This document shows positions 1,981-58,102 of a stretch of 64,000 bases of DNA, piece after piece (positions within the stretch are counted from its first letter, which is position 1; every line of letters starts with the position of its first letter). Made by a program: the position numbers and the translations under genes. The DNA comes from Polyangiales bacterium (GTDB lineage: Bacteria > Myxococcota_A > Polyangia > Polyangiales > Ga0077539), in the NCBI GenBank assembly GCA_046351535.1, contig JAXLYG010000005.1, positions 293,334 through 357,333 on the forward strand, written 5' to 3'. The notes beneath the pieces were generated by a model. It saw only the letters and a program-made list of their open reading frames with translations. It did no database searches and had not been told where the DNA came from.

Positions 1981-2848
1981 CTCCGCTCACGCGTCGCCCG
2001 CGTGGGCCTTGTAGCGCTGCGCGATCTCCGCGGCCGTGCGCAGGGTGGTACCCCTCACCGCCCGCTTCCGCGCGCCCTTTCCCCGCCAGCGCCCGCAAGG
2101 GCTGCGTCGCGGTGATCGTCGGCCGACCGCGTGGCGGACGCGCGGCGCCACCGCTTCCGTCGCGCGCGCCCTTGCCCCGCGTGAGTCTGACCGCCATTGG
2201 GGAGTTGACAGCGCCAGACGCTTCCCGTCGCGCCTGGGGTTCGGCCCGCGTGAGAGGGACGCGCGTGACGCGCCCAGGGCGATACGCGCGTGACGCGCCC
2301 GGGCGATACGCGCGTGACGCGCCCAGGGCGATACGCGCGTGAGGCGCCCAGGGCGATACGCGCGTGACGCGCCCAGGGTTCGCCCCCAAGGGATGTACAC
2401 GATCGGGGGCTCAGCCTGGGCTATGACGAGGCACGGATCACCCTCTTCGAGGGTTCAGCAGAGAGAGCCTCGCCATGCCTTCTGAACCGGTCGAAGACCG
2501 GTGATCCGTGCCTTGATGAAGCCCAGGCCGAGCCCCCGATCGCGTACATCCCTTGGGGGGCGAGCCCTGGGCGCGTCACGCGCGTATCGCCCTGGGCGCG
2601 TCACGCGCGTCCCTCTCACGCGGGCCGAACCCCAGGCGCGACGGGAAGCGTCTGGCGCTGTCAACTCCCCAATGGCGGTCAGACTCGACTGGCGGGGAAA
2701 GGGCGCGCGGAAGCGGGGTGAGGGGTACCACCCTGCGCGCCGCCGCAACCTCGCGCGCCGAACCCCAGGCGATCCCCGTCGAGCACCACCGCCTCCGCTC
2801 ACGCGTCGCCCGCGTGGGCCTTGTAGCGCTGCGCGATCTCCGCGGCCG
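1981..2848. repeat. Complex palindromic repeat region made of segments A, B, C, D, a centre, D', B', E and A
   Basis: A direct repeat of a 63-bp gene 3' end lies at 1981-2043 and 2783-2848. Inverted arms at 2044-2090 vs 2690-2735 and at 2184-2395 vs 2560-2690 are near-exact reverse complements. The centre (2396-2560) is itself an extended palindrome. Arm copy number of an internal 25-bp repeat differs (about 4.5 vs 2). Confidence 0.8.
2266..2395. repeat. Tandem 25-bp repeat (gcgcgtgacgcgcccagggcgatac), about 4.5 copies; two inverted copies at 2566-2615
   Basis: Read directly from the sequence. Each unit contains the near-palindrome gcgcgtgacgcgc. Confidence 0.85.
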
Positions 2849-5560: not shown

Positions 5561-6982
5561 TCAGCGCGGCGCGAACGCGACGCTGCGGTACGTGGTGTTG
5601 AGCGGCGCCGTGGCGACGGCCGTGAGCGACGCGGTGGCCGACGTGACCGAGACGTCGAGGCGGAGCAGCCGCGCGCGCGACTCCGTGGTGGTGGCGTAGA
5701 GCACGTAGTCCGAGCCGTTGGTGCGCCCCGTGAGGCCGCGGAGGCCGTTCGTGAGGCCCGTCACGGTGAGGGGCTGCATGGTCCAGGTGCCGCCCACGAG
5801 GCGCCAGTAGAGCAGTCCGCCGCCCGAGGCGGGGGTGCGGTCGTCGGCGACGAAGAGCACGTCGGCGGCGCCGTTTCCGTCGCGGTCGAAGGCCGCCACG
5901 CCGTAGGGCGAGAGGGTCATCGTGGTGGGGAAGCCCGGCGCCACCGAGAGCGTCGCGCCCGCCGCGCGAGGCAGCGGCGAGGTGGTGAACACGCCCGAGC
6001 CCGCGGGCGTGGAGCCCGTGACGAAGAGCTGCGTGCCGAAGGCCGAGACCCAGCGGTACACGTTGGTCGTGAGCAGGGGGATGCCCGCCGTCGCGCCGCC
6101 GTAGGGCGTGTAGAAGAGGTTCCCGTCGCTCACGAGCGCGTGGATCGACCAGAACTCGCTGCCGTCGACGGTGGCGACGGAGCGCATCGCGAGGCGGTCG
6201 GCCATGGCGCCGACGGTGGTGCGCGTGTCGACCACGCCCGCGGCGTTGATGCGCGCGATCACGCGCGGTCCGCTCGTGGAGTTGGGCGTCGTCGTGCCGA
6301 CGGGGATGCCGTAGCCGCCGAGCACCACGTAGGCGCCGTTGACCGAGCGGAAGAGCGCCCCCTCGGCCGTCGCGTTGCCCGTGATCGTGAGGATGTTGTT
6401 GGCCCCCGAAGGCGCCGTGGGGAGCGCGATGGGCGTGCCCACGGGCGTCGCCGTCGCGCCGTTGTAGATCTCGATGTTCACGGGCGCCGCCGTGGCCGCG
6501 AGCGAGGCGACGCCGTCTCCGACGCGGAGCACCCAGATCGTGTCGTTCCCCGTGACGGGCACGTCGGGGGTGACGGGCACGTCGGGCGTGACGGGCACAT
6601 CGGGCGTGACCGGAACGTCGGGCCTCACGGGCACATCGGGCGCCACGGGGATGTCGGGCGTCACGGGGATGTCCATCGTGACGGGCACATCGGGCGTGAC
6701 CGGAACGTCGGGCACGACGGGCACATCCATCGTGACGGGAACGTCCATCGCGACGGGCGCATCGGGGGTGACGGGCGCGTCGGGGGTGACGGGCGCGTCG
6801 GGCGTGACGGGGGTGTCGGTGGCGACGGGGACGTCGTCGGTGACGGGCGTGTCGGGCGTCGAGGGCGTGTCGTTGACCGCGGCGTCGTCGGTGGGCGTCG
6901 AGCCTCCACCCGTGTTGCCGCGCGCGGAGCACGCCATCGAGAGAAGCATCGCGAGAAGGAGGGGCTGCGGTCGGAAGCTCAT
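5561..6982 (-). CDS. Secreted lipoprotein with a Pro/Thr/Asp-rich tandem linker (PVTPDV x about 20) and an unknown C-terminal domain
   Basis: Signal peptide and lipobox (LLSMACSARG). An 18-nt tandem coding repeat at about 6500-6850 encodes the repeated D(T/V/A)PVTPD units. Confidence 0.6.
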   Translation of the reverse strand: MSFRPQPLLLAMLLSMACSARGNTGGGSTPTDDAAVNDTPSTPDTPVTDDVPVATDTPVTPDAPVTPDAPVTPDAPVAMDVPVTMDVPVVPDVPVTPDVPVTMDIPVTPDIPVAPDVPVRPDVPVTPDVPVTPDVPVTPDVPVTGNDTIWVLRVGDGVASLAATAAPVNIEIYNGATATPVGTPIALPTAPSGANNILTITGNATAEGALFRSVNGAYVVLGGYGIPVGTTTPNSTSGPRVIARINAAGVVDTRTTVGAMADRLAMRSVATVDGSEFWSIHALVSDGNLFYTPYGGATAGIPLLTTNVYRWVSAFGTQLFVTGSTPAGSGVFTTSPLPRAAGATLSVAPGFPTTMTLSPYGVAAFDRDGNGAADVLFVADDRTPASGGGLLYWRLVGGTWTMQPLTVTGLTNGLRGLTGRTNGSDYVLYATTTESRARLLRLDVSVTSATASLTAVATAPLNTTYRSVAFAPR

Positions 6983-12617: not shown

Positions 12618-13664
12618 ATGTACCCGCACACTCTGCTGGTGAAGCGCTACGCATGGATCCTCGCGCTGGCCCTTCTCGGGGGGTGCGCCGAGGGCAACGA
12701 GGTCATCGGCAGCTCCGACGCCGCGGATGACCTCGTCACCGACGACACCGTCACCACCGACGACGCCCCCGAAGTCGCGCCCCCCGACGCCGCAGACGAG
12801 AGCCCCATCGACGCGGTGATTCCCGACGCGGTGAGCGACACGGCGATGGACCTCGCGCCCGACGTCGCGCCCGATGTGACCGTCGATGTGACCGTCGACG
12901 CGGTCGAAGACACGGGCCTCGTGTGTGACGCGGGTCGCTCGGTGTGCAGCGGGCGCTGCGTGCTCGTCGCGAGCGATCCGGCCAACTGCGGACGCTGCGG
13001 AAACGCCTGTCCCGCAGGGCTCGCGTGCGTGGGCGGCGCCTGCGCGTGCCCGTCGCCCCTCACGCTCTGCGACGGCGCGTGCGTCGACACCCGCGTCGCG
13101 CCGACCCACTGCGGACGCTGCGGCAACGCGTGCCCCGTGGGCGCCGCGTGCTCGGCGGGCGCGTGCACGTGCGCCGTCGGATCGCTCTGCGGCTCCACCT
13201 GCATCGACACGCGCAGCAGCAACACCAACTGCGGCGCGTGCGGCAACGCGTGCCCCGCGGGCGAGGCCTGCTCCGCGGGCGCGTGCGTGTGCGGCGCCAC
13301 GCAGATGCGCTGCAGCGGCGTCTGCGTCGACACGCGCACGAGCGCCACCAACTGCGGCGCGTGCGGGCGGGCCTGCACCGCGGGCCAGAGCTGCATCTCG
13401 GGCGCGTGCGCGTGTGCGTCGGGGTCCACCATCTGCTCGGGCGCGTGCGTGAACACCTTCGCCGATCGAATGAACTGCGGCGGCTGCGATCGGTATTGCG
13501 GTGGGGACTGTGTGGGCGGCACCTGCCTCCCCGCGTGCAACCCCGGTCAGACGCGTTGCGGGAGCGTGTGCGACAACCTCTCAACCAGCGTCTACAACTG
13601 CGGTCGCTGCGGGAACATGTGCGGCGGGACGCGGCTCTGCGTCGGCGGTACGTGTACGCCGTAA
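12618..13664 (+). CDS. Secreted lipoprotein built of about 7 Cys-rich tandem repeats (myxobacterial Cys-rich repeat type)
   Basis: Signal plus lipobox (LALLGGCAEG). Repeats of C-x-G-x-C...CVDTR...NCG(A/R)CGNACP.G.AC every about 40 aa. Confidence 0.65.
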   Translation: MYPHTLLVKRYAWILALALLGGCAEGNEVIGSSDAADDLVTDDTVTTDDAPEVAPPDAADESPIDAVIPDAVSDTAMDLAPDVAPDVTVDVTVDAVEDTGLVCDAGRSVCSGRCVLVASDPANCGRCGNACPAGLACVGGACACPSPLTLCDGACVDTRVAPTHCGRCGNACPVGAACSAGACTCAVGSLCGSTCIDTRSSNTNCGACGNACPAGEACSAGACVCGATQMRCSGVCVDTRTSATNCGACGRACTAGQSCISGACACASGSTICSGACVNTFADRMNCGGCDRYCGGDCVGGTCLPACNPGQTRCGSVCDNLSTSVYNCGRCGNMCGGTRLCVGGTCTP

Positions 13665-24588: not shown

Positions 24589-24998
24589 CCCTCACCCCGT
24601 CCCTCTCCCGCGAAGCGGGAGAGGGTGCCTGTTGGTAGCTGCCATGCCCTCACCCTGCCCTCCCGGCAGAGCCGGGAGAGGGTGTCAGCGCATCGACGAC
24701 GAAGCGCTCGGTGGTGCCGACGAAGCGCTCGGTGGCGGTGCCGACGAAGCGCTCGGTGGCGGTGCCGACGAAGCGCTCGGTGGCGGTGCCGACGAAGCGC
24801 TCGGTGGCGGTGCCGACGAAGCGCTCGGTGACGGTGCTGACGAAGCGCTCGGTAACGGTGCTGACGAGGATCGACGTCACGCTTCGTCGCCTCGACACCC
24901 TCTCCCGGCTCTGCCGGGAGAGGGCCGGGGTGAGGGCATGGCAGCTACCAACAGGCACCCTCTCCCGCTTCGCGGGAGAGGGACGGGGTGAGGGTCAC
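24584..24998. repeat. Composite element: a perfect roughly 105-bp inverted repeat flanking about 7 tandem 24-bp repeats, between convergent stop codons
   Basis: The left arm (24584-24685) is the exact reverse complement of the right arm (24893-24998), and both include the GGTGA of the flanking genes' stops. Each arm holds two internal hairpins (ccctctcccgcgaagcgggagaggg; ccctcccggcagagccgggagaggg). The centre, at 24700-24870, is tandem copies of gacgaagcgctcggtggcggtgcc. Confidence 0.85.
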
Positions 24999-54074: not shown

Positions 54075-54539
54075 TCACCCGAGGCGCTTCTCGTAGAGGT
54101 TGTCCTCCCAGTCGTTGTCGACGCGCTCGAGGAGCGTGAAGCCGTTGCGCTCATAGAGCCTGTGGGCCTTGCCGAAGCGCCGCGACGAGTCGAGCCAGAT
54201 CGCCTCGTAGCCCGCGCGCCGCGCGAAAGCCTCGGCGTGATCGTAGAGCCGCTGACCGAGGCCCGAACCCCTCCGTTGGGGGTGGAGGTAGAGCCGCTTG
54301 AACTCGCAGGTGCGGCCCTCCTTCGGTCTGATCGCGACGGTGCCGACGACGACGCCGTCCTCCGCGACCGCGACCCAGAAGCCCGCGCCCTCGGCGCCGT
54401 AGCGCGTCGCGATCTCCGCGAGGTCGCGCTCCACGCCGCCGACGGCGTGGCCGAAGCCGAACTCCGTGAGCACGGCCGCGACGAGCGCGCGCACGGCGTC
54501 GCGGTCTTCATCCCGATAGGGCCTGATGGAGACGCTCAC
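54075..54539 (-). CDS. GNAT family N-acetyltransferase
   Basis: VGTVAIRP...RLYLHPQRRGSGLGQRLYDHAEAFARRAGYE is a GNAT acetyl-CoA binding motif. Confidence 0.8.
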   Translation of the reverse strand: MSVSIRPYRDEDRDAVRALVAAVLTEFGFGHAVGGVERDLAEIATRYGAEGAGFWVAVAEDGVVVGTVAIRPKEGRTCEFKRLYLHPQRRGSGLGQRLYDHAEAFARRAGYEAIWLDSSRRFGKAHRLYERNGFTLLERVDNDWEDNLYEKRLG

Positions 54540-54546
54540 GGTCGGA

Positions 54547-57500
54547 TCAGCTCCCCGAGGCGGCGGTCCACACGTAGCCCGCGAGGCCCTCGTTGGCGTA
54601 GCCGCTGCGAAGGGCCGAGTCTCGCTCGGCCACGCTCGTGGTGTAGAGGTGGTCGTTCGAACCGCCCTGATAGAGCCGATAGAGCGGGACGGCGCCGCAC
54701 ACGGGCGACGACGCGATGTAGCCCATGACGCCCTCGTTGGTGCCCGGCACGAGCCCCTCGCAGTTGCTCGCCGTCGTGTAGAAGTGCTTTCCGTACGACA
54801 TGTAGCAGCGGTAGAAGGGCACCAGGCCCGGGGCCGGGGCCGCGTAGAGGTAGTAGTAGGGCGAGAACTCCACGCGGAAGCCGCAGCACGACGCCTCCGC
54901 GGCGCTGGCCGTGTAGAAGTGCTCGCCGCTCGCGTGATACGAGCGCGAGATGGCGACGCGGCAGCCGCCGCGGTCGTCGCAGACGCCGTTGCAGTTGTCG
55001 TCGGCGAGGTTGCACGCCTCCGCAGGAACCGACCCGCACGCGCCGCAGTTCGAGGGGTCCGTGCGGAGGTTCGACTCGCAGCCGTCGGCCGCGGCGCCGT
55101 TGCAGTTCCCGTAGCCCGACACGCACGAGACGACGGTGCAGCCGCCGCTCGCGCAGCCCGTCGCGGCGGTGTTGGCGAGGGCGCACGCGCGGCCGCACGC
55201 GCCGCAGTTCGACGGGTCGCTCGCGGTGCTCACCTCGCAGCCGTCGGCGGGGTTGCCGTTGCAGTTCGCGAAGCCCGCGTTGCAAGACGCCACGGCGCAG
55301 CGCCCGGAGGCGCACGCCGCCGTGGCGTTCGAGAGCGCGCAGCGCATCCCGCAGCCGCCGCAGTTCGAAGCGTCGGTGCCGAGCGACGCCTCGCAGCCGT
55401 CGGAGGCCGCGCCGTTGCAGTCGCCGAAGCCCGTGTTGCACGCCACGACGGTGCAGCGGCCCGACGCGCACACGCCCGCCCCGTTCGACGGCGCGCAGCG
55501 CACGCCGCAGCCGCCGCAGTTCGACTCGTCGCTCGACGTGAAGACCTCGCAGCCGTTGGCGGGGTTGCCGTCGCAGTCGGCGAAGCCCGCGTTGCAAGAC
55601 GCCACGGCGCAGCGCCCGCCGACGCAGGTCGCCGTGGCGCTCGGGAGCGAGCAGGCCGTGCCGCACGCGCCGCAGTTGCGCGCGTCGGAGGCGAGCGTGA
55701 CCTCGCAGCCGTTGGTGGGGTTGCCGTCGCAGTCGGCGCGCCCCGCGTCGCACGCGGCGATGTCGCAGCGCGCGCCCGTGCACGCGGGCGTTCCGCCGGG
55801 CGTGGCGCAGCGCACGCCGCAGCCGTTGCAGTTCGAAGGATCGCTGCGGGTGTTGACCTCGCAGCCGTTGGCGGGGTTGCCGTCGCAGTCGGCGAAGCCC
55901 GCGTTGCAAGACGCCACGGCGCAGCGCCCGCCCGCGCACGACGCGGTGCCGTTGGTGATCGCGCAGCCCATGCCGCAGGCGCCGCAGTTGCGCACGTCGG
56001 TGGCGAAGGTGGCCTCGCAGCCGTTGGAGGAGTCGCCGTCGCAGTCGCCGAGGCCCGCGGCGCACGAGGCGATGCGGCAGCTCCCGCGCTCACACGCCGC
56101 CGACGAGCCGGGGAAGGAGCACGCGTTGCCGCAGCGTCCGCAGTGCGAGGTGCTCGTCGCGAGGTTCACCTCGCAGCCGTTGGAGGCGACCATGTCGCAG
56201 TCGGCGAAGCCCGCATCGCAGGTCGCAATGGCGCAGCGTCCCGTCGCGCACGCCGCCGTGGCGTTGGGGAGCGAGCAGGCCGTGCCGCACGCGCCGCAGT
56301 TGCGCGCGTCGGAGGCGAGGTCGACCTCGCAGCCGTTCGAGGCCGTGGCGTCGCAGTCGGCGCGGCCCGTCATGCACGCGGCGATGTCGCAGCGGCCCGC
56401 CATGCACGCGGGCGTTCCGCCGGGCGTGGCGCAGCGCATGCCGCAGCCGTTGCAGTTCGCGGCGTCGCTGAGGGTGTTCACCTCGCAGCCGTTCGAAGGG
56501 TCCATGTCGCAGTCGGCGAAGTTCGCCTCGCACGCGGTGATCGCGCAGCGGCCCAACGCGCAGGCGCCCGTGGCGTGGGCCGGCGCGCAGGCGCGGTCGC
56601 AGGCGCCGCAGTTGCGCGCGTCGGCGCGCACGTCGACCTCGCAGCCGTTGTCGGCGTTGCCGTCGCAGTCTTGAAAGCCCATCACGCACGACGTCACGCA
56701 GCGCCCGCCGAGGCAGCCGGGGAAGGCGTTGGGCCGCGACGGGCACGCCGTTCCGCAGCGTCCGCAGTGCGAGACGGCGGTGTTGGTGTCGACCTCGCAG
56801 CCGTTGGTGGGGTTGCCGTCGCAGTCGCCGAAGCCCGTCGCGCACGAGGCCACGGCGCACCGCCCCATCGCGCACGAAGGCACCGCGTTGGGCGGATTGC
56901 ACGCCGCCCTGCACGCGCCGCAGCTCGTCTCGTCGGCGTTGAGGTCGACCTCGCAGCCGTTGTCGGCGTTGCCGTCGCAGTCGGCGAAGCCCGCCTCGCA
57001 CGCGAACTCGCAGCGGCCCGACGAGCACGACGAGCGCGCGTGGGGCCGCGCGGGGCAGGCGCTCCCGCAGGCGCCGCAGTTCGAGGCGTCAGTGAGCGTG
57101 TTGGTCTCGCAGCCGCTGGCCGCGGCGCGGTCGCAGTCGGCGAAGGGCGCCGTGCACGCGCCCACGGCGCACATGCCGTTCATGCACGCGGCGGTGGCGT
57201 TGGGCGCGGCGCAGCGGTTGTCGCAGCGGCCGCAGTGGGCGAGGTTCGACACGTTGTCGACGCACGCGCCGCCGCAGCACGAGAGCGTGCCGGGGCAGGG
57301 GCGCGACGCGGTGCAGCCCATCACGCAGGTGCTCCCGACGCAGAGCATCCCCGCGGGGCAGTGGTCGTCGGTGACGCACTCCACGCAGGCGCGGGTCGTA
57401 CGGTCGCAGCGCCTCGCCAGCGGGATCGCGCTCCCCGCGTCGACGCCCGCGTCGCCGAGCAGCGCCGCGCAGCCCTCGTCGTCGCGGCAGCCGGGGAGGC

Positions 57501-57894
57501 AGGTGTTGCCCGTGGGGTCGCAGAAGCGTCCCGCGGGGCAGGTGTCGCGCGTCGCGAGGCAGCCCACGCAGCGCCCGGTGGTCGTGTCGCACACGGGGCC
57601 CGCGGGGTCGCTCGCGCAGTCGCCGTCGCTGGCGCAGCGCGTCGGTCCGTCGGGGGTGTCGGTGGCGTCGGTGACGTCGGCCGCGTCGGAGGCGTCGTCG
57701 GCGTCGGTGACGTCCGCGGCGTCGCGCGCGTCGGCGTCGAGGTCCGGCGCGTCGGTGACGTCCGGGGCGTCGGTGACCTCCGACGCGTCTTCTGGCGATC
57801 CGTCGGCGAGGCCGCCGACGACGGGGCGACCGGAGCACGCGGCGAGCGCGAAGAGCGCGAACAGCGCAGCGAGGCGGGCGATGTGACGCTTCAC
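54547..57894 (-). CDS. Giant secreted Cys-rich repeat lipoprotein (about 1115 aa; about 14 tandem 46-aa Cys repeats and a C-terminal triple HFYT repeat domain)
   Basis: GTG start after a GGGGAG RBS. Lipobox LFALAACSG. Repeats of ...C..G.C...C..GFADCDGN..NGCEV....D..NCG.CG..C.... A C-terminal domain carrying EHFYT / KHFYTT / DHLYTT. Confidence 0.7.
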   Translation of the reverse strand: MKRHIARLAALFALFALAACSGRPVVGGLADGSPEDASEVTDAPDVTDAPDLDADARDAADVTDADDASDAADVTDATDTPDGPTRCASDGDCASDPAGPVCDTTTGRCVGCLATRDTCPAGRFCDPTGNTCLPGCRDDEGCAALLGDAGVDAGSAIPLARRCDRTTRACVECVTDDHCPAGMLCVGSTCVMGCTASRPCPGTLSCCGGACVDNVSNLAHCGRCDNRCAAPNATAACMNGMCAVGACTAPFADCDRAAASGCETNTLTDASNCGACGSACPARPHARSSCSSGRCEFACEAGFADCDGNADNGCEVDLNADETSCGACRAACNPPNAVPSCAMGRCAVASCATGFGDCDGNPTNGCEVDTNTAVSHCGRCGTACPSRPNAFPGCLGGRCVTSCVMGFQDCDGNADNGCEVDVRADARNCGACDRACAPAHATGACALGRCAITACEANFADCDMDPSNGCEVNTLSDAANCNGCGMRCATPGGTPACMAGRCDIAACMTGRADCDATASNGCEVDLASDARNCGACGTACSLPNATAACATGRCAIATCDAGFADCDMVASNGCEVNLATSTSHCGRCGNACSFPGSSAACERGSCRIASCAAGLGDCDGDSSNGCEATFATDVRNCGACGMGCAITNGTASCAGGRCAVASCNAGFADCDGNPANGCEVNTRSDPSNCNGCGVRCATPGGTPACTGARCDIAACDAGRADCDGNPTNGCEVTLASDARNCGACGTACSLPSATATCVGGRCAVASCNAGFADCDGNPANGCEVFTSSDESNCGGCGVRCAPSNGAGVCASGRCTVVACNTGFGDCNGAASDGCEASLGTDASNCGGCGMRCALSNATAACASGRCAVASCNAGFANCNGNPADGCEVSTASDPSNCGACGRACALANTAATGCASGGCTVVSCVSGYGNCNGAAADGCESNLRTDPSNCGACGSVPAEACNLADDNCNGVCDDRGGCRVAISRSYHASGEHFYTASAAEASCCGFRVEFSPYYYLYAAPAPGLVPFYRCYMSYGKHFYTTASNCEGLVPGTNEGVMGYIASSPVCGAVPLYRLYQGGSNDHLYTTSVAERDSALRSGYANEGLAGYVWTAASGS

Positions 57895-58102
57895 GAAGAG
57901 ACTCCCCGGGCGGTGCGGTGGTGGAACGGCGCGACGGCGACGACGATACACGCGCCGCGGCCCGCCGCGACGGGCGCCGCATGGGCCGTTTGTCTCACGC
58001 CCATTTCTCTCGCGAAGCGCGCGGCGGGCGCGGCGCGCAAAGCACGACGCGCGATGCGGCTGCGCGGGGCGCACGAAACGTAGTAACGTCGCGTCCCTTT
58101 CG

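What the first reader, a model, noticed from the sequence alone, without database searches (positions are those of the whole stretch)
54547..57894. A roughly 1115-aa lipoprotein made of about 14 near-identical 46-aa Cys-rich repeats plus a triple HFYT C-terminal module; a smaller relative at 12618..13664
Units have the form A-C-x(3,5)-C-x-x-G-x-C-x(3,4)-C-x-x-G-F-A-D-C-D-G-N-x-x-N-G-C-E-V-x(6)-N-C-G-x-C-G-x-x-C, with about 8 Cys per unit and over 110 Cys in total. The C-terminus carries three short HFYT-containing repeats. The 12618 protein uses a related CVDTR...NCGACGNACP unit. Such Cys-rich repeats are characteristic of Myxococcota. The nucleotide-level repetition (55100-57300) is also a recombination and misassembly hazard.
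Basis: partly seen in the sequence, partly recalled or inferred. Interest (0 to 1): 0.5.

Follow-up and report, generated by a model that had tools for sequence, protein, structure and literature searches.

The report
Cysteine-rich stalk lipoprotein with lectin-like head
This is a real but ordinary myxobacterial gene for a lipid-anchored protein, built as a long rod of fourteen 52-residue cysteine-rich modules with a probable sugar-binding domain at its far end; it is one of thousands of uncharacterised relatives.

Summary
The gene is real: 54547..57894 on the minus strand, 1115 aa, with a conserved lipobox. The repeat period is 52 aa (156 nt), not 46. The units average about 50% identity to each other, so they are not near-identical. 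The protein has 145 Cys. No TIGR02232 match exists. The hits are NCBIfam NF041328 (MXAN_6577-like Cys-rich) and Pfam DUF5648, which covers the three HFYT blades. The smaller protein at 12618..13664 is a genuine relative, with six 41-aa Stig1-type units.

An independent assembly of a related strain (95% nt identity) is intact and has no indel in the repeats, and a third assembly of that strain is colinear with the same gene length. Assembly collapse is therefore unlikely.

AlphaFold2 models four units at pLDDT 95.7. No solved structure is close; the best matches are weak ones to tandem EGF arrays. The module occurs in about 13,500 protein clusters. All 79 genome loci retrieved come from Myxococcota or unclassified delta-/proteobacterial MAGs. 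Paralogues carry other binding domains at the C-terminus (LamG, F5/8-C, RCC1, FG-GAP).

Best reading: an envelope-anchored adhesin or lectin with tether, rigid disulfide-bonded stalk and glycan-binding head. This resembles TraA in design, but it is not a TraA family member. It is a new member of a known, uncharacterised kind, of modest interest.

The parts
54547..57894 (-). Complete gene for the 1115-aa Cys-rich lipoprotein (stop codon 54547-54549; GTG start at 57894)
   Evidence: ORF listing and start-codon scan. GC3 is 96%. dN/dS against orthologue L004 is 0.23. More than 2600 homologues were found.
57902..57907 (-). Shine-Dalgarno-like GGGGAG, 7 nt upstream of the GTG start
   Evidence: Upstream sequence printed. 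This is sequence inspection only.
57835..57894 (-). Lipoprotein signal peptide, aa 1-20 (MKRHIARLAALFALFALAAC), with lipobox L-A-A-C
   Evidence: Sequence. A lipobox is kept in orthologues: VKRPLARISALITLIALSAC in L004 and MRPWVSHRLLLAILAAC in L002. Many paralogues also have one.
57640..57834 (-). Acidic low-complexity tether, aa 21-85 (about 27% Asp and 20% Ala, net charge about -19), encoded by a degenerate 9/18-nt repeat
   Evidence: Composition. TRF arrays at 57639-57789. This is the only part of the gene with length differences from orthologue L004, namely two 3-nt indels.
57157..57639 (-). N-terminal Cys-rich region, aa 86-246 (26 Cys), ending in one canonical Stig1-type unit (CCGGACVDNVSNLAHCGRCDNRC...)
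   Evidence: Sequence and NCGxCG motif scan. The best NF041328 stretch covers aa 195-347. No Pfam family matches this region.
54970..57156 (-). Array of 14 tandem 52-aa modules, aa 247-975 (13 complete, the last truncated and running into a CNLADDNCNGVCDD junction). Consensus: CxxGFaDCDGnxxNGCEVx4DxxNCGxCGxxCx8CxxGRCxxxx, with 8 Cys per unit
   Evidence: TRF period 156 nt at 55034-57236. Unit table and identity matrix. 13 DNA copies spaced at 156 nt. AF2 model of aa 293-510 at pLDDT 95.7, with the same secondary-structure pattern every 52 residues.
54568..54945 (-). C-terminal DUF5648 (PF18885) domain, aa 984-1109: three HFYT/HLYT blades. [quoted passage not shown]
   Evidence: Pfam E = 3.6e-23, 82.7 bits against a cutoff of 25. 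Blade motifs. AF2 pLDDT is 85-93 over this part, with three beta-beta-(alpha)-beta modules. Literature.
12618..13664 (+). Smaller paralogue: a 348-aa lipoprotein (lipobox L-G-G-C) with an acidic tether, six 40-41-aa Stig1-type Cys-rich units and no head domain
   Evidence: ORF and sequence. Pfam Stig1 at 101.8 bits in 6 stretches, and NF041328 at 252.4 bits. BLASTP to the large protein gives E = 3e-14.

Best explanation
The gene encodes an exported, lipid-anchored envelope protein of an uncultivated Myxococcota bacterium. It is built as anchor, tether, stalk and head.

- Anchor: after signal peptidase II cleavage, Cys20 would carry the lipid anchor.
- Tether: a segment of about 65 residues, strongly acidic and low in complexity, follows the anchor.
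- Stalk: a Cys-rich N-terminal region and fourteen contiguous 52-aa modules come next. Each module has 8 Cys, presumably forming four disulfides. There are no linkers between units, so the array should form a stiff, protease-resistant rod.
- Head: a DUF5648 three-bladed beta-alpha propeller sits at the distal C-terminus and most likely binds a glycan. Candidate ligands are a prey or neighbour surface polysaccharide, or the organism's own exopolysaccharide.

The protein would therefore act as a long-reach adhesin or lectin. The stalk sets the reach and the head sets the specificity. Paralogues swap the head and change the number of stalk units.

Shown here: the ORF, the lipobox, the repeat anatomy, family membership, purifying selection, a confident module fold, and the C-terminal position of variable heads in paralogues.

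Inferred: lipidation, disulfide bonding, rod shape and rigidity, surface exposure, glycan binding and the ligand.
For: Anatomy:
- The lipobox, the acidic tether, and the array of 14 x 52 aa with 8 invariant Cys per unit and zero-length linkers.

Selection and stability:
- dN/dS is 0.20 in the repeats. All Cys but one (C170, in the N-terminal region) are conserved against the 94%-identical orthologue. No indels occur in the repeats.

Stalk module:
- AF2 gives pLDDT 95.7 for four units, each with the same small N-terminal part plus a beta-hairpin.
- The nearest solved structures, though weak matches, are rod-forming tandem EGF arrays from Notch and NELL.

Head:
- Pfam DUF5648, E = 3.6e-23, with pLDDT 85-93 in the AF2 model.
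[quoted passage not shown] It serves as the C-terminal receptor-binding domain of the O-antigen-targeting toxins BSAP-2 and BSAP-3. It is also an auxiliary domain of GH70 glucanotransferases and is found on a GH25 endolysin (PMC12853789, PMC11299179).

Modularity:
- In six paralogues checked, the non-repeat domain lies C-terminal to the array. These domains are mostly binding domains: Laminin_G_3/ConA-like, F5/8 type C, RCC1 propeller, FG-GAP, plus one FGE-sulfatase.
- Homologues bearing DUF5648 fall into two length classes, about 1100 aa with 13-14 units and about 900 aa with 9-10 units. The difference is about four whole units.

Precedent:
- For M. xanthus TraA, the authors proposed that Cys-rich tandem repeats act as a rigid stalk presenting a lectin-like PA14 head on the cell surface (PMC3325183).
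Against: - No experiment exists on this protein or on any close homologue.
- Most Gram-negative lipoproteins face the periplasm, and surface exposure is not shown.
- I could not inspect model coordinates, so disulfide pairing, rise per unit and straightness were not measured.
- Glycan binding by DUF5648 is itself an inference in the literature. No solved structure or ligand complex exists. Sequence and Foldseek searches of the PDB found nothing.
- The junction between stalk and head (aa 949-976) is modelled with pLDDT below 50.
- Neighbouring genes are not conserved between orthologous loci, so genomic context gives no functional support.
Confidence: 0.55

Rival explanations
1. A periplasmic or matrix structural protein with no specific ligand. 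In this reading the Cys-rich array is a scaffold or filler of the envelope or extracellular matrix, and the DUF5648 domain has a non-lectin role such as protein-protein contact.
For: Cys-rich proteins are typical of extracellular matrices (statement in PMC3325183). Many family members end shortly after the repeats and have no recognisable head. The small paralogue at 12618..13664 has no head at all. Surface exposure has not been shown.
Against: Where extra domains exist, they lie C-terminal to the array and are mostly carbohydrate- or ligand-binding types. DUF5648 occurs in proteins that target glycans. The lipid anchor plus a long tether fits display better than bulk matrix.
Confidence: 0.2
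2. A metal-binding or redox-buffering protein. In this reading the 145 cysteines act as thiolate ligands or redox-active thiols, as in metallothioneins, rather than forming structural disulfides.
For: Cys makes up 13% of the protein. The junction motif CNLADDNCNGVCDD resembles the MopE 'putative metal-binding motif' PF11617, which some paralogues do carry.
Against: The protein has an export signal, so it folds in an oxidising compartment. There is an even number of invariant Cys per unit in a fixed framework. AF2 gives a highly confident, beta-hairpin-containing module fold whose nearest neighbours are disulfide-bonded EGF modules. PF11617 itself does not hit this protein at E <= 1.
Confidence: 0.07
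3. A kin-recognition or outer-membrane-exchange component, either a TraA-like receptor or lipoprotein cargo, that mediates cell-cell recognition among myxobacteria rather than general adhesion.
For: It shares a design with TraA: a lectin-like head on a Cys-rich stalk anchored in the outer membrane. It belongs to a large paralogous family, with at least 5-7 loci per MAG among the best 80 hits. The head has a somewhat higher dN/dS (0.35) than the stalk (0.20).
Against: It has no PA14 domain, no TIGR04201 repeats, no MYXO-CTERM and no traB-like neighbour. Its topology is inverted, with an N-terminal anchor. dN/dS of 0.35 still indicates purifying selection, not the hypervariability seen in the TraA variable domain.
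Confidence: 0.1
4. An assembly artefact, meaning the repeat number has collapsed or expanded, or a non-functional pseudogene.
For: The gene contains tandem DNA repeats with a 156-nt period and exact repeats of up to 78 nt. In one related assembly (L001, GCA_964268295.1) the gene is broken by frameshifts.
Against: Unit copies are only 62-84% identical at the DNA level. L004, an independently assembled MAG (JBPOHC01), is intact, has the same number of units and has no indel in the repeats. L001 is 99.1% identical to L004 and differs from it by four small indels of 1-4 nt (three of 1 nt, one of them in a C run, and one of 4 nt), so sequencing or assembly error in L001 is the likelier cause of its frameshifts. 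Orthologues at 66-80% identity keep 13-14 units. dN/dS is 0.23.
Confidence: 0.03

Closest known systems
NCBIfam NF041328, MXAN_6577-like cysteine-rich protein (function unknown)
   Same: Both window proteins score above the curated cutoff of 100 bits: 129.6 bits in 9 stretches for the large protein and 252.4 bits for the small one. They share the ...C-[VE]-[DV]-x6-7-NCGxCGxxC-x-C-x-C... core.
   Different: The 145-position profile models the short, Stig1-type unit of about 41 aa. The large protein's unit is an expanded 52-aa version with an extra CxxGFADCDGNxxNGCE segment. It also carries a DUF5648 head that the family model does not include.
Pfam PF04885 Stig1 (plant stigma-specific Cys-rich STIG1-like family)
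   Same: The small protein matches in 6 stretches (101.8 bits). Both share the NCGxCGxxC motif and the Cys spacing.
   Different: The large protein gives no Stig1 hit at E <= 1. Plant STIG1 proteins, as I recall them, are small secreted signalling peptides with a single Cys-rich domain (recalled, not tested here); they are not lipoproteins with long arrays.
[quoted passage not shown]
   Same: The C-terminal 126 aa match nearly the full profile (positions 4-134 of 134) at E = 3.6e-23. There are three blades with the HFYT signature. It is a C-terminal targeting module, as in the BSAPs.
   Different: Here it is fused to a Cys-rich stalk and a lipid anchor, not to a pore-forming MACPF domain or a glycoside hydrolase. 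It carries 6 extra Cys. The ligand is unknown.
Myxococcus xanthus TraA (PA14 head, TIGR04201 Cys-rich stalk, MYXO-CTERM anchor)
   Same: Same design principle and same phylum: a lectin-like head held away from the outer membrane by a tandem Cys-rich stalk (PMC3325183).
   Different: The head is different (DUF5648, not PA14). The repeat family is different, with no TIGR04201 hit. The anchor and polarity are different: an N-terminal lipobox rather than a C-terminal MYXO-CTERM. There is no TraB partner gene. This is an analogy in how it might work, not family membership.
Eukaryotic tandem EGF-like arrays (Notch EGF11-13, NELL1 EGF1-3, fibrillin)
   Same: These are the nearest solved structures to the four-unit model. 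Both consist of small disulfide-rich modules with a beta-hairpin, concatenated without linkers.

Membership tests
   No TIGR02232 hit in NCBIfam and no DUF4215 hit in Pfam at E <= 1 for either protein.
NF041328 MXAN_6577-like cysteine-rich protein | Whole-protein score at or above the curated cutoff of 100 bits | tested here: met
   129.6 bits (E = 8e-38, 9 stretches) for the large protein and 252.4 bits (E = 1e-75) for the small protein.
Pfam Stig1 (PF04885) | Score at or above the gathering cutoff of 24.1 bits | tested here: not met
   The large protein has no hit at E <= 1. The small protein at 12618..13664 does meet it, with 101.8 bits in 6 stretches.
Pfam DUF5648 (PF18885) | Score at or above the cutoff of 25 bits over the full-length profile, with three repeated blades | tested here: met
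   82.7 bits, with profile positions 4-134 of 134 matched at aa 984-1109. HFYT/HFYT/HLYT spaced 45 aa apart. The AF2 model shows three beta-beta-(alpha)-beta modules at pLDDT 85-93.
DUF5648 as a glycan-binding module | Demonstrated binding of a carbohydrate ligand | not testable with these tools
   Only inferred in the literature, from BSAP-2/-3 targeting of O-antigen and from the GH70 and GH25 contexts. No solved structure exists.
Bacterial lipoprotein (signal peptidase II substrate) | A positively charged n-region, a hydrophobic h-region and a lipobox [LVI][ASTVI][GAS]C within the first 15-35 residues | tested here: met
   MKRHIARLAALFALFALAAC, with L-A-A-C at positions 17-20. A lipobox is conserved in orthologues. 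Actual lipidation and localisation are not testable here.
TraA-type receptor | A PA14 domain, TIGR04201 repeats, the MYXO-CTERM tag (TIGR03901) and an adjacent traB | tested here: not met
   None of these models hit. The C-terminus is ...YVWTAASGS, with no transmembrane or Arg-rich tag. The neighbours are a GNAT acetyltransferase and unrelated genes.
EGF-like domain superfamily | A six-Cys framework with 1-3, 2-4, 5-6 pairing, and significant fold or sequence similarity | tested here: not met

The most novel reading that the evidence does not exclude
The 52-aa, 8-Cys module may be a distinct rod-forming extracellular domain seen so far only in Myxococcota-type MAGs. It has no dedicated Pfam model and no solved structural neighbour. 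Myxobacteria may use it as a universal, length-adjustable display stalk for a large, head-swapping repertoire of surface lectins or receptors, possibly for prey or kin recognition. The module is found in more than 13,000 clusters at 50% identity, and each genome carries several paralogues. If so, it would be a bacterial counterpart of eukaryotic EGF or TNFR-type arrays.
Probability: 0.3. Interest if true: 0.55.

Novelty: new member of a known kind. Interest (0 to 1): 0.3.

Why it matters
Myxococcota genomes are full of large Cys-rich 'hypothetical' lipoproteins whose roles in predation, adhesion and social behaviour are unknown. This locus is a clean, intact example. It has a confidently predicted stalk module and a head domain that recent work links to recognition of O-antigen and other glycans. 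That makes it a practical starting point for testing whether this family forms a repertoire of surface lectins. For genome annotation, three points follow. The TIGR02232 label would be wrong. The repeat count appears reliable. And the 52-aa unit deserves its own family model. No new biological principle is demonstrated.

Tried and rejected
- An exact-sequence lookup of the protein in public assemblies found nothing on record.
- PDB sequence searches with the head and with three units gave only chance-level hits. These were Fe superoxide dismutase, and a potato-type trypsin inhibitor at E = 0.04.
I used the whole protein instead.
- Literature searches for MXAN_6577 and for Stig1 in myxobacteria found nothing relevant. 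The one Stig1 hit was a peptide name beginning 'Stig_'.
- I looked for functional clues in gene neighbourhood and rejected that line. The downstream GNAT acetyltransferase (54075..54539) is kept only in the near-identical strain (L001). In a 75%-identical orthologue locus (L002/L003) the neighbours are entirely different.
- The 1185-aa antisense ORF (54526..58083, plus strand) was rejected as a shadow ORF of the GC-rich gene.
- The truncated 618-aa database protein P0007 and the antisense gene calls in L001 were traced to frameshift errors in that assembly.
- My first two regex versions of the Cys framework were miscounted and matched nothing. They were corrected.
Full report
**1. The observation**

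The window has 72% G+C. On the minus strand an ORF runs to a stop at 54547-54549. Of the possible starts, GTG at 57894 lies 7 nt downstream of GGGGAG. It yields MKRHIARLAALFALFALAAC|SGRP..., a textbook lipoprotein signal with lipobox L-A-A-C.

The product is 1115 aa with 145 Cys, or 13%. GC3 of this frame is 96%. The 1185-aa ORF on the opposite strand is therefore the usual high-GC shadow.

**2. Repeat anatomy**

- Tandem Repeats Finder reports a 156-nt period over 55034-57236, with higher-order periods of 312 and 468 nt.
- At the protein level the DC[DN]G motif recurs every 52 residues (53 once) from aa 253 to 930.
- Cut at the first Cys, there are 13 complete units plus a truncated fourteenth, together spanning aa 247-975. 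Each has 8 Cys.
- The consensus is CxxGFaDCDGnxxNGCEVx4DxxNCGxCGxxCx8CxxGRCxxxx.
- The Cys framework C-6-C-7-C-10-C-2-C-3-C-8/9-C-4-C-4-C occurs 11 times, and in none of 2000 shuffles of the protein.
- Units 1 and 3 use a 9/3 spacing instead of 8/4 but keep the 52-aa length.

The units are not near-identical. Mean pairwise identity is 50%, with a range of 23-77%. DNA copies are 62-84% identical. The longest exact intragenic repeat is 78 nt.

**3. The other parts of the protein**

- Residues 21-85 are an acidic low-complexity tether, with about 27% Asp and a net charge of about -19.
- Residues 86-246 are a further Cys-rich region with 26 Cys. It ends in one short Stig1-type unit.
- The C-terminal 140 residues contain three blades with HFYT, HFYT and HLYT at a 45-aa spacing.

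**4. The second protein**

The protein at 12618..13664 (plus strand) is 348 aa with lipobox L-G-G-C and a similar acidic tether. It has six 40-41-aa units of the form C-x-C-x6-C-x3-C-[VI]-[DN]-T-x6-NCGxCGxxC-x5-C-x4. BLASTP between the two proteins gives E = 3e-14. No other ORF in the window carries the NCGxCGxxC motif.

**5. Family assignments**

- Pfam finds only DUF5648 (PF18885) in the large protein: aa 984-1109, E = 3.6e-23, covering nearly the whole profile. In the small protein it finds Stig1 (PF04885) in six stretches.
- NCBIfam, which includes the TIGRFAMs, finds NF041328 'MXAN_6577-like cysteine-rich protein' in both. Scores are 129.6 and 252.4 bits against a cutoff of 100.
Neither does TIGR04201, the TraA stalk repeat.

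The 52-aa unit thus looks like an expanded form of the Stig1/NF041328 unit of about 41 aa. The short 'C-x3-C-V-D' entry is replaced by 'CxxGFADCDGNxxNGCEV'. This comes from the alignments and is an inference.

**6. Is the repeat number an artefact?**

- A 20-kb stretch of the window is colinear at 93-94% nt identity with a 1-Mb contig of GCA_964268295.1 (L001). The gene has the same length there. In L001 the gene is interrupted by frameshifts and was annotated as a 618-aa fragment (P0007) plus antisense ORFs.
- A different assembly, JBPOHC01 'Myxococcota bacterium MAG_1' (L004), carries an intact 1117-aa gene.
- L001 and L004 are 99.1% identical. Within the gene they differ by four small indels of 1-4 nt, three of them single bases and one of those in a C run. 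That pattern suggests sequencing or assembly error in L001.
- The window gene differs from L004 by 4.8% substitutions and two 3-nt indels. Both indels lie in the acidic tether and none in the repeats.
- Orthologues at 66-80% identity (L002, L005, L006, L007) keep 13-14 units.
- dN/dS between the window and L004 is 0.23 overall and 0.20 in the repeats. Only one Cys position differs.

The gene is functional and its copy number is stable. The misassembly concern is largely removed, although reads from this particular sample were not available.

**7. Distribution**

- A word-indexed search returned more than 2600 homologues. None carries an informative name.
- A profile of four units, searched against 1.84 billion representatives at 50% identity, found 13,561 proteins at E <= 1e-3 and 3,184 at E <= 1e-30. 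Some exceed 4000 aa.
- In species-representative genomes, 405 stretches were confirmed. All 79 loci returned are MAGs labelled Myxococcota, Polyangiales, Polyangiaceae, Myxococcales, Myxococcaceae, Deltaproteobacteria or, in one case, Proteobacteria. Individual MAGs contribute 5-7 paralogous loci to the best 80 hits.
- Family members have 8-25 units of 51-52 aa and frequently a lipobox.
- In six paralogues scanned, the additional domains lie C-terminal to the array. They are Laminin_G_3 (ConA-like lectin fold), F5/8 type C with a NedA-like galactose-binding domain, an RCC1 propeller, FG-GAP, and FGE-sulfatase. Precomputed annotations add MopE motifs, Kelch and others.
- Homologues bearing DUF5648 fall into two length classes, about 1100 aa with 13-14 units and about 900 aa with 9-10 units. 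The difference is about four whole units.

**8. Structure**

An AlphaFold2 model of aa 293-510 (four units) was built from a 40-row alignment of four-unit windows taken from homologues. It reached mean pLDDT 95.7 and pTM 0.72. The same secondary-structure pattern recurs every 52 residues: two short bridges and two one-turn helices in the first half, then a beta-hairpin.

A second model covered aa 871-1115 and used 16 orthologues. It gave pLDDT 85-93 for the DUF5648 part, as three beta-beta-(alpha)-beta modules. The junction at aa 949-976 scored below 50. This model has no PDB neighbour by sequence or by Foldseek. That agrees with the statement that no 3D structure of DUF5648 had been described (PMC11299179).

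**9. What is known about the head**

DUF5648 is described from AlphaFold models as a (beta3-alpha)x3 domain, or three-bladed beta-alpha propeller. Surface grooves between the subdomains are lined with aromatic residues (PMC11299179). It forms the C-terminal receptor-binding domain of the Bacteroidales toxins BSAP-2 and BSAP-3, which target O-antigen glycans. It also occurs in GH70 alpha-glucanotransferases. The authors infer glycan recognition from this (PMC12853789). One instance is fused to a GH25 endolysin domain.

In the orthologue alignment, an R...[E/K/D]-H-[F/L]-Y-T...E signature is conserved in each of the three blades. This would fit three pseudo-equivalent sites, but that is an inference.

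**10. Mechanism proposed**

The protein is a lipid-anchored, long-reach adhesin or lectin. Its parts are an anchor (Cys20), a flexible acidic tether, a stiff disulfide-bonded stalk whose length is set by the number of 52-aa modules, and a distal glycan-binding DUF5648 head.

The closest functional analogy in the same phylum is TraA of Myxococcus xanthus. There a PA14 lectin-like head is followed by Cys-rich tandem repeats, which the authors proposed act as a rigid stalk, and by a MYXO-CTERM anchor (PMC3325183). The present protein is not a TraA family member. The head, the repeat family, the anchor and the polarity all differ.

Localisation, disulfide formation, rigidity and ligand are inferred, not shown. 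From my own recollection, not tested here, M. xanthus lipoproteins without Lys at +2 are generally sorted to the outer membrane. The +2 residue here is Ser.

**11. Rivals**

- A ligand-less matrix or periplasmic scaffold is plausible for the headless paralogues, including the small protein at 12618.
- A metal-thiolate or redox role is unlikely, given the export signal, the fixed even-numbered Cys framework and the EGF-like module fold.
- A TraA-like kin-recognition role is not excluded, but no defining feature of that system is present.
- An assembly artefact or pseudogene is rejected by section 6.

Gene neighbourhood does not help. The GNAT gene 8 nt downstream is conserved only in the near-identical strain. 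A 75%-identical orthologue sits among entirely different genes.

**12. Verdict**

The protein is a new member of a very large, curated-but-uncharacterised family of Cys-rich lipoproteins found in Myxococcota-type MAGs (NF041328), carrying a DUF5648 head.

The points of modest interest are these. The 52-aa module has no dedicated Pfam model and no solved structural neighbour, despite a very confident prediction. The family also shows modularity, with interchangeable C-terminal heads and varying unit numbers. Nothing here would strongly surprise a specialist.

Noticed in passing
window 5561..6982 (-): Another predicted lipoprotein (MSFRPQPLLLAMLLSMACSARG...). Its tether is a long (P-D-V-P-V-T)n hexapeptide repeat, encoded by the 18-nt x 17 tandem array at 6551-6859. 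It follows the same 'lipobox plus acidic Pro/Asp/Val/Thr tether' design as the two Cys-rich proteins, but the body of the protein is not Cys-rich.
   Followed up: partly
window 24697..24867: A well-conserved 24-nt tandem repeat (7.2 copies, 96% matches). It lies between or at the edge of doubtful ORFs. In one frame it reads VPTKRSVA repeated. Its nature (coding or non-coding) was not determined.
   Followed up: no
window 2259..2378: A 25-nt tandem repeat with 4.8 copies and 95% matches (ACGCGCGTGACGCGCCCAGGGCGAT). It was not examined.
   Followed up: no
L001 8400..11900 (GCA_964268295.1, contig CAXXZZ010000026.1): In this public assembly the orthologous gene is split by 1-4-nt indels relative to the 99.1%-identical L004. 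As a result it was annotated as a 618-aa fragment (P0007) plus spurious antisense ORFs. This is an annotation hazard for such genes in error-prone assemblies.
   Followed up: yes
P0016 (homologue list): One strong homologue (1139 aa, 21 units) is deposited as a protein of the bdelloid rotifer Adineta steineri. This most likely reflects bacterial contamination of that assembly, or possibly horizontal transfer. It was not examined.
   Followed up: no
P0079 (Chondromyces apiculatus CAP_2185): UniRef names a member of this Cys-rich repeat family 'Tryptophan synthase alpha chain'. This is an evident mis-annotation that may propagate to relatives.
   Followed up: no
window 54075..54539 (-): A 154-aa GNAT-type acetyltransferase starts 8 nt after the stop of the Cys-rich gene, on the same strand. 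The pairing is conserved in the near-identical strain L001 but not in the 75%-identical orthologue locus L002, so it is probably coincidental.
   Followed up: partly
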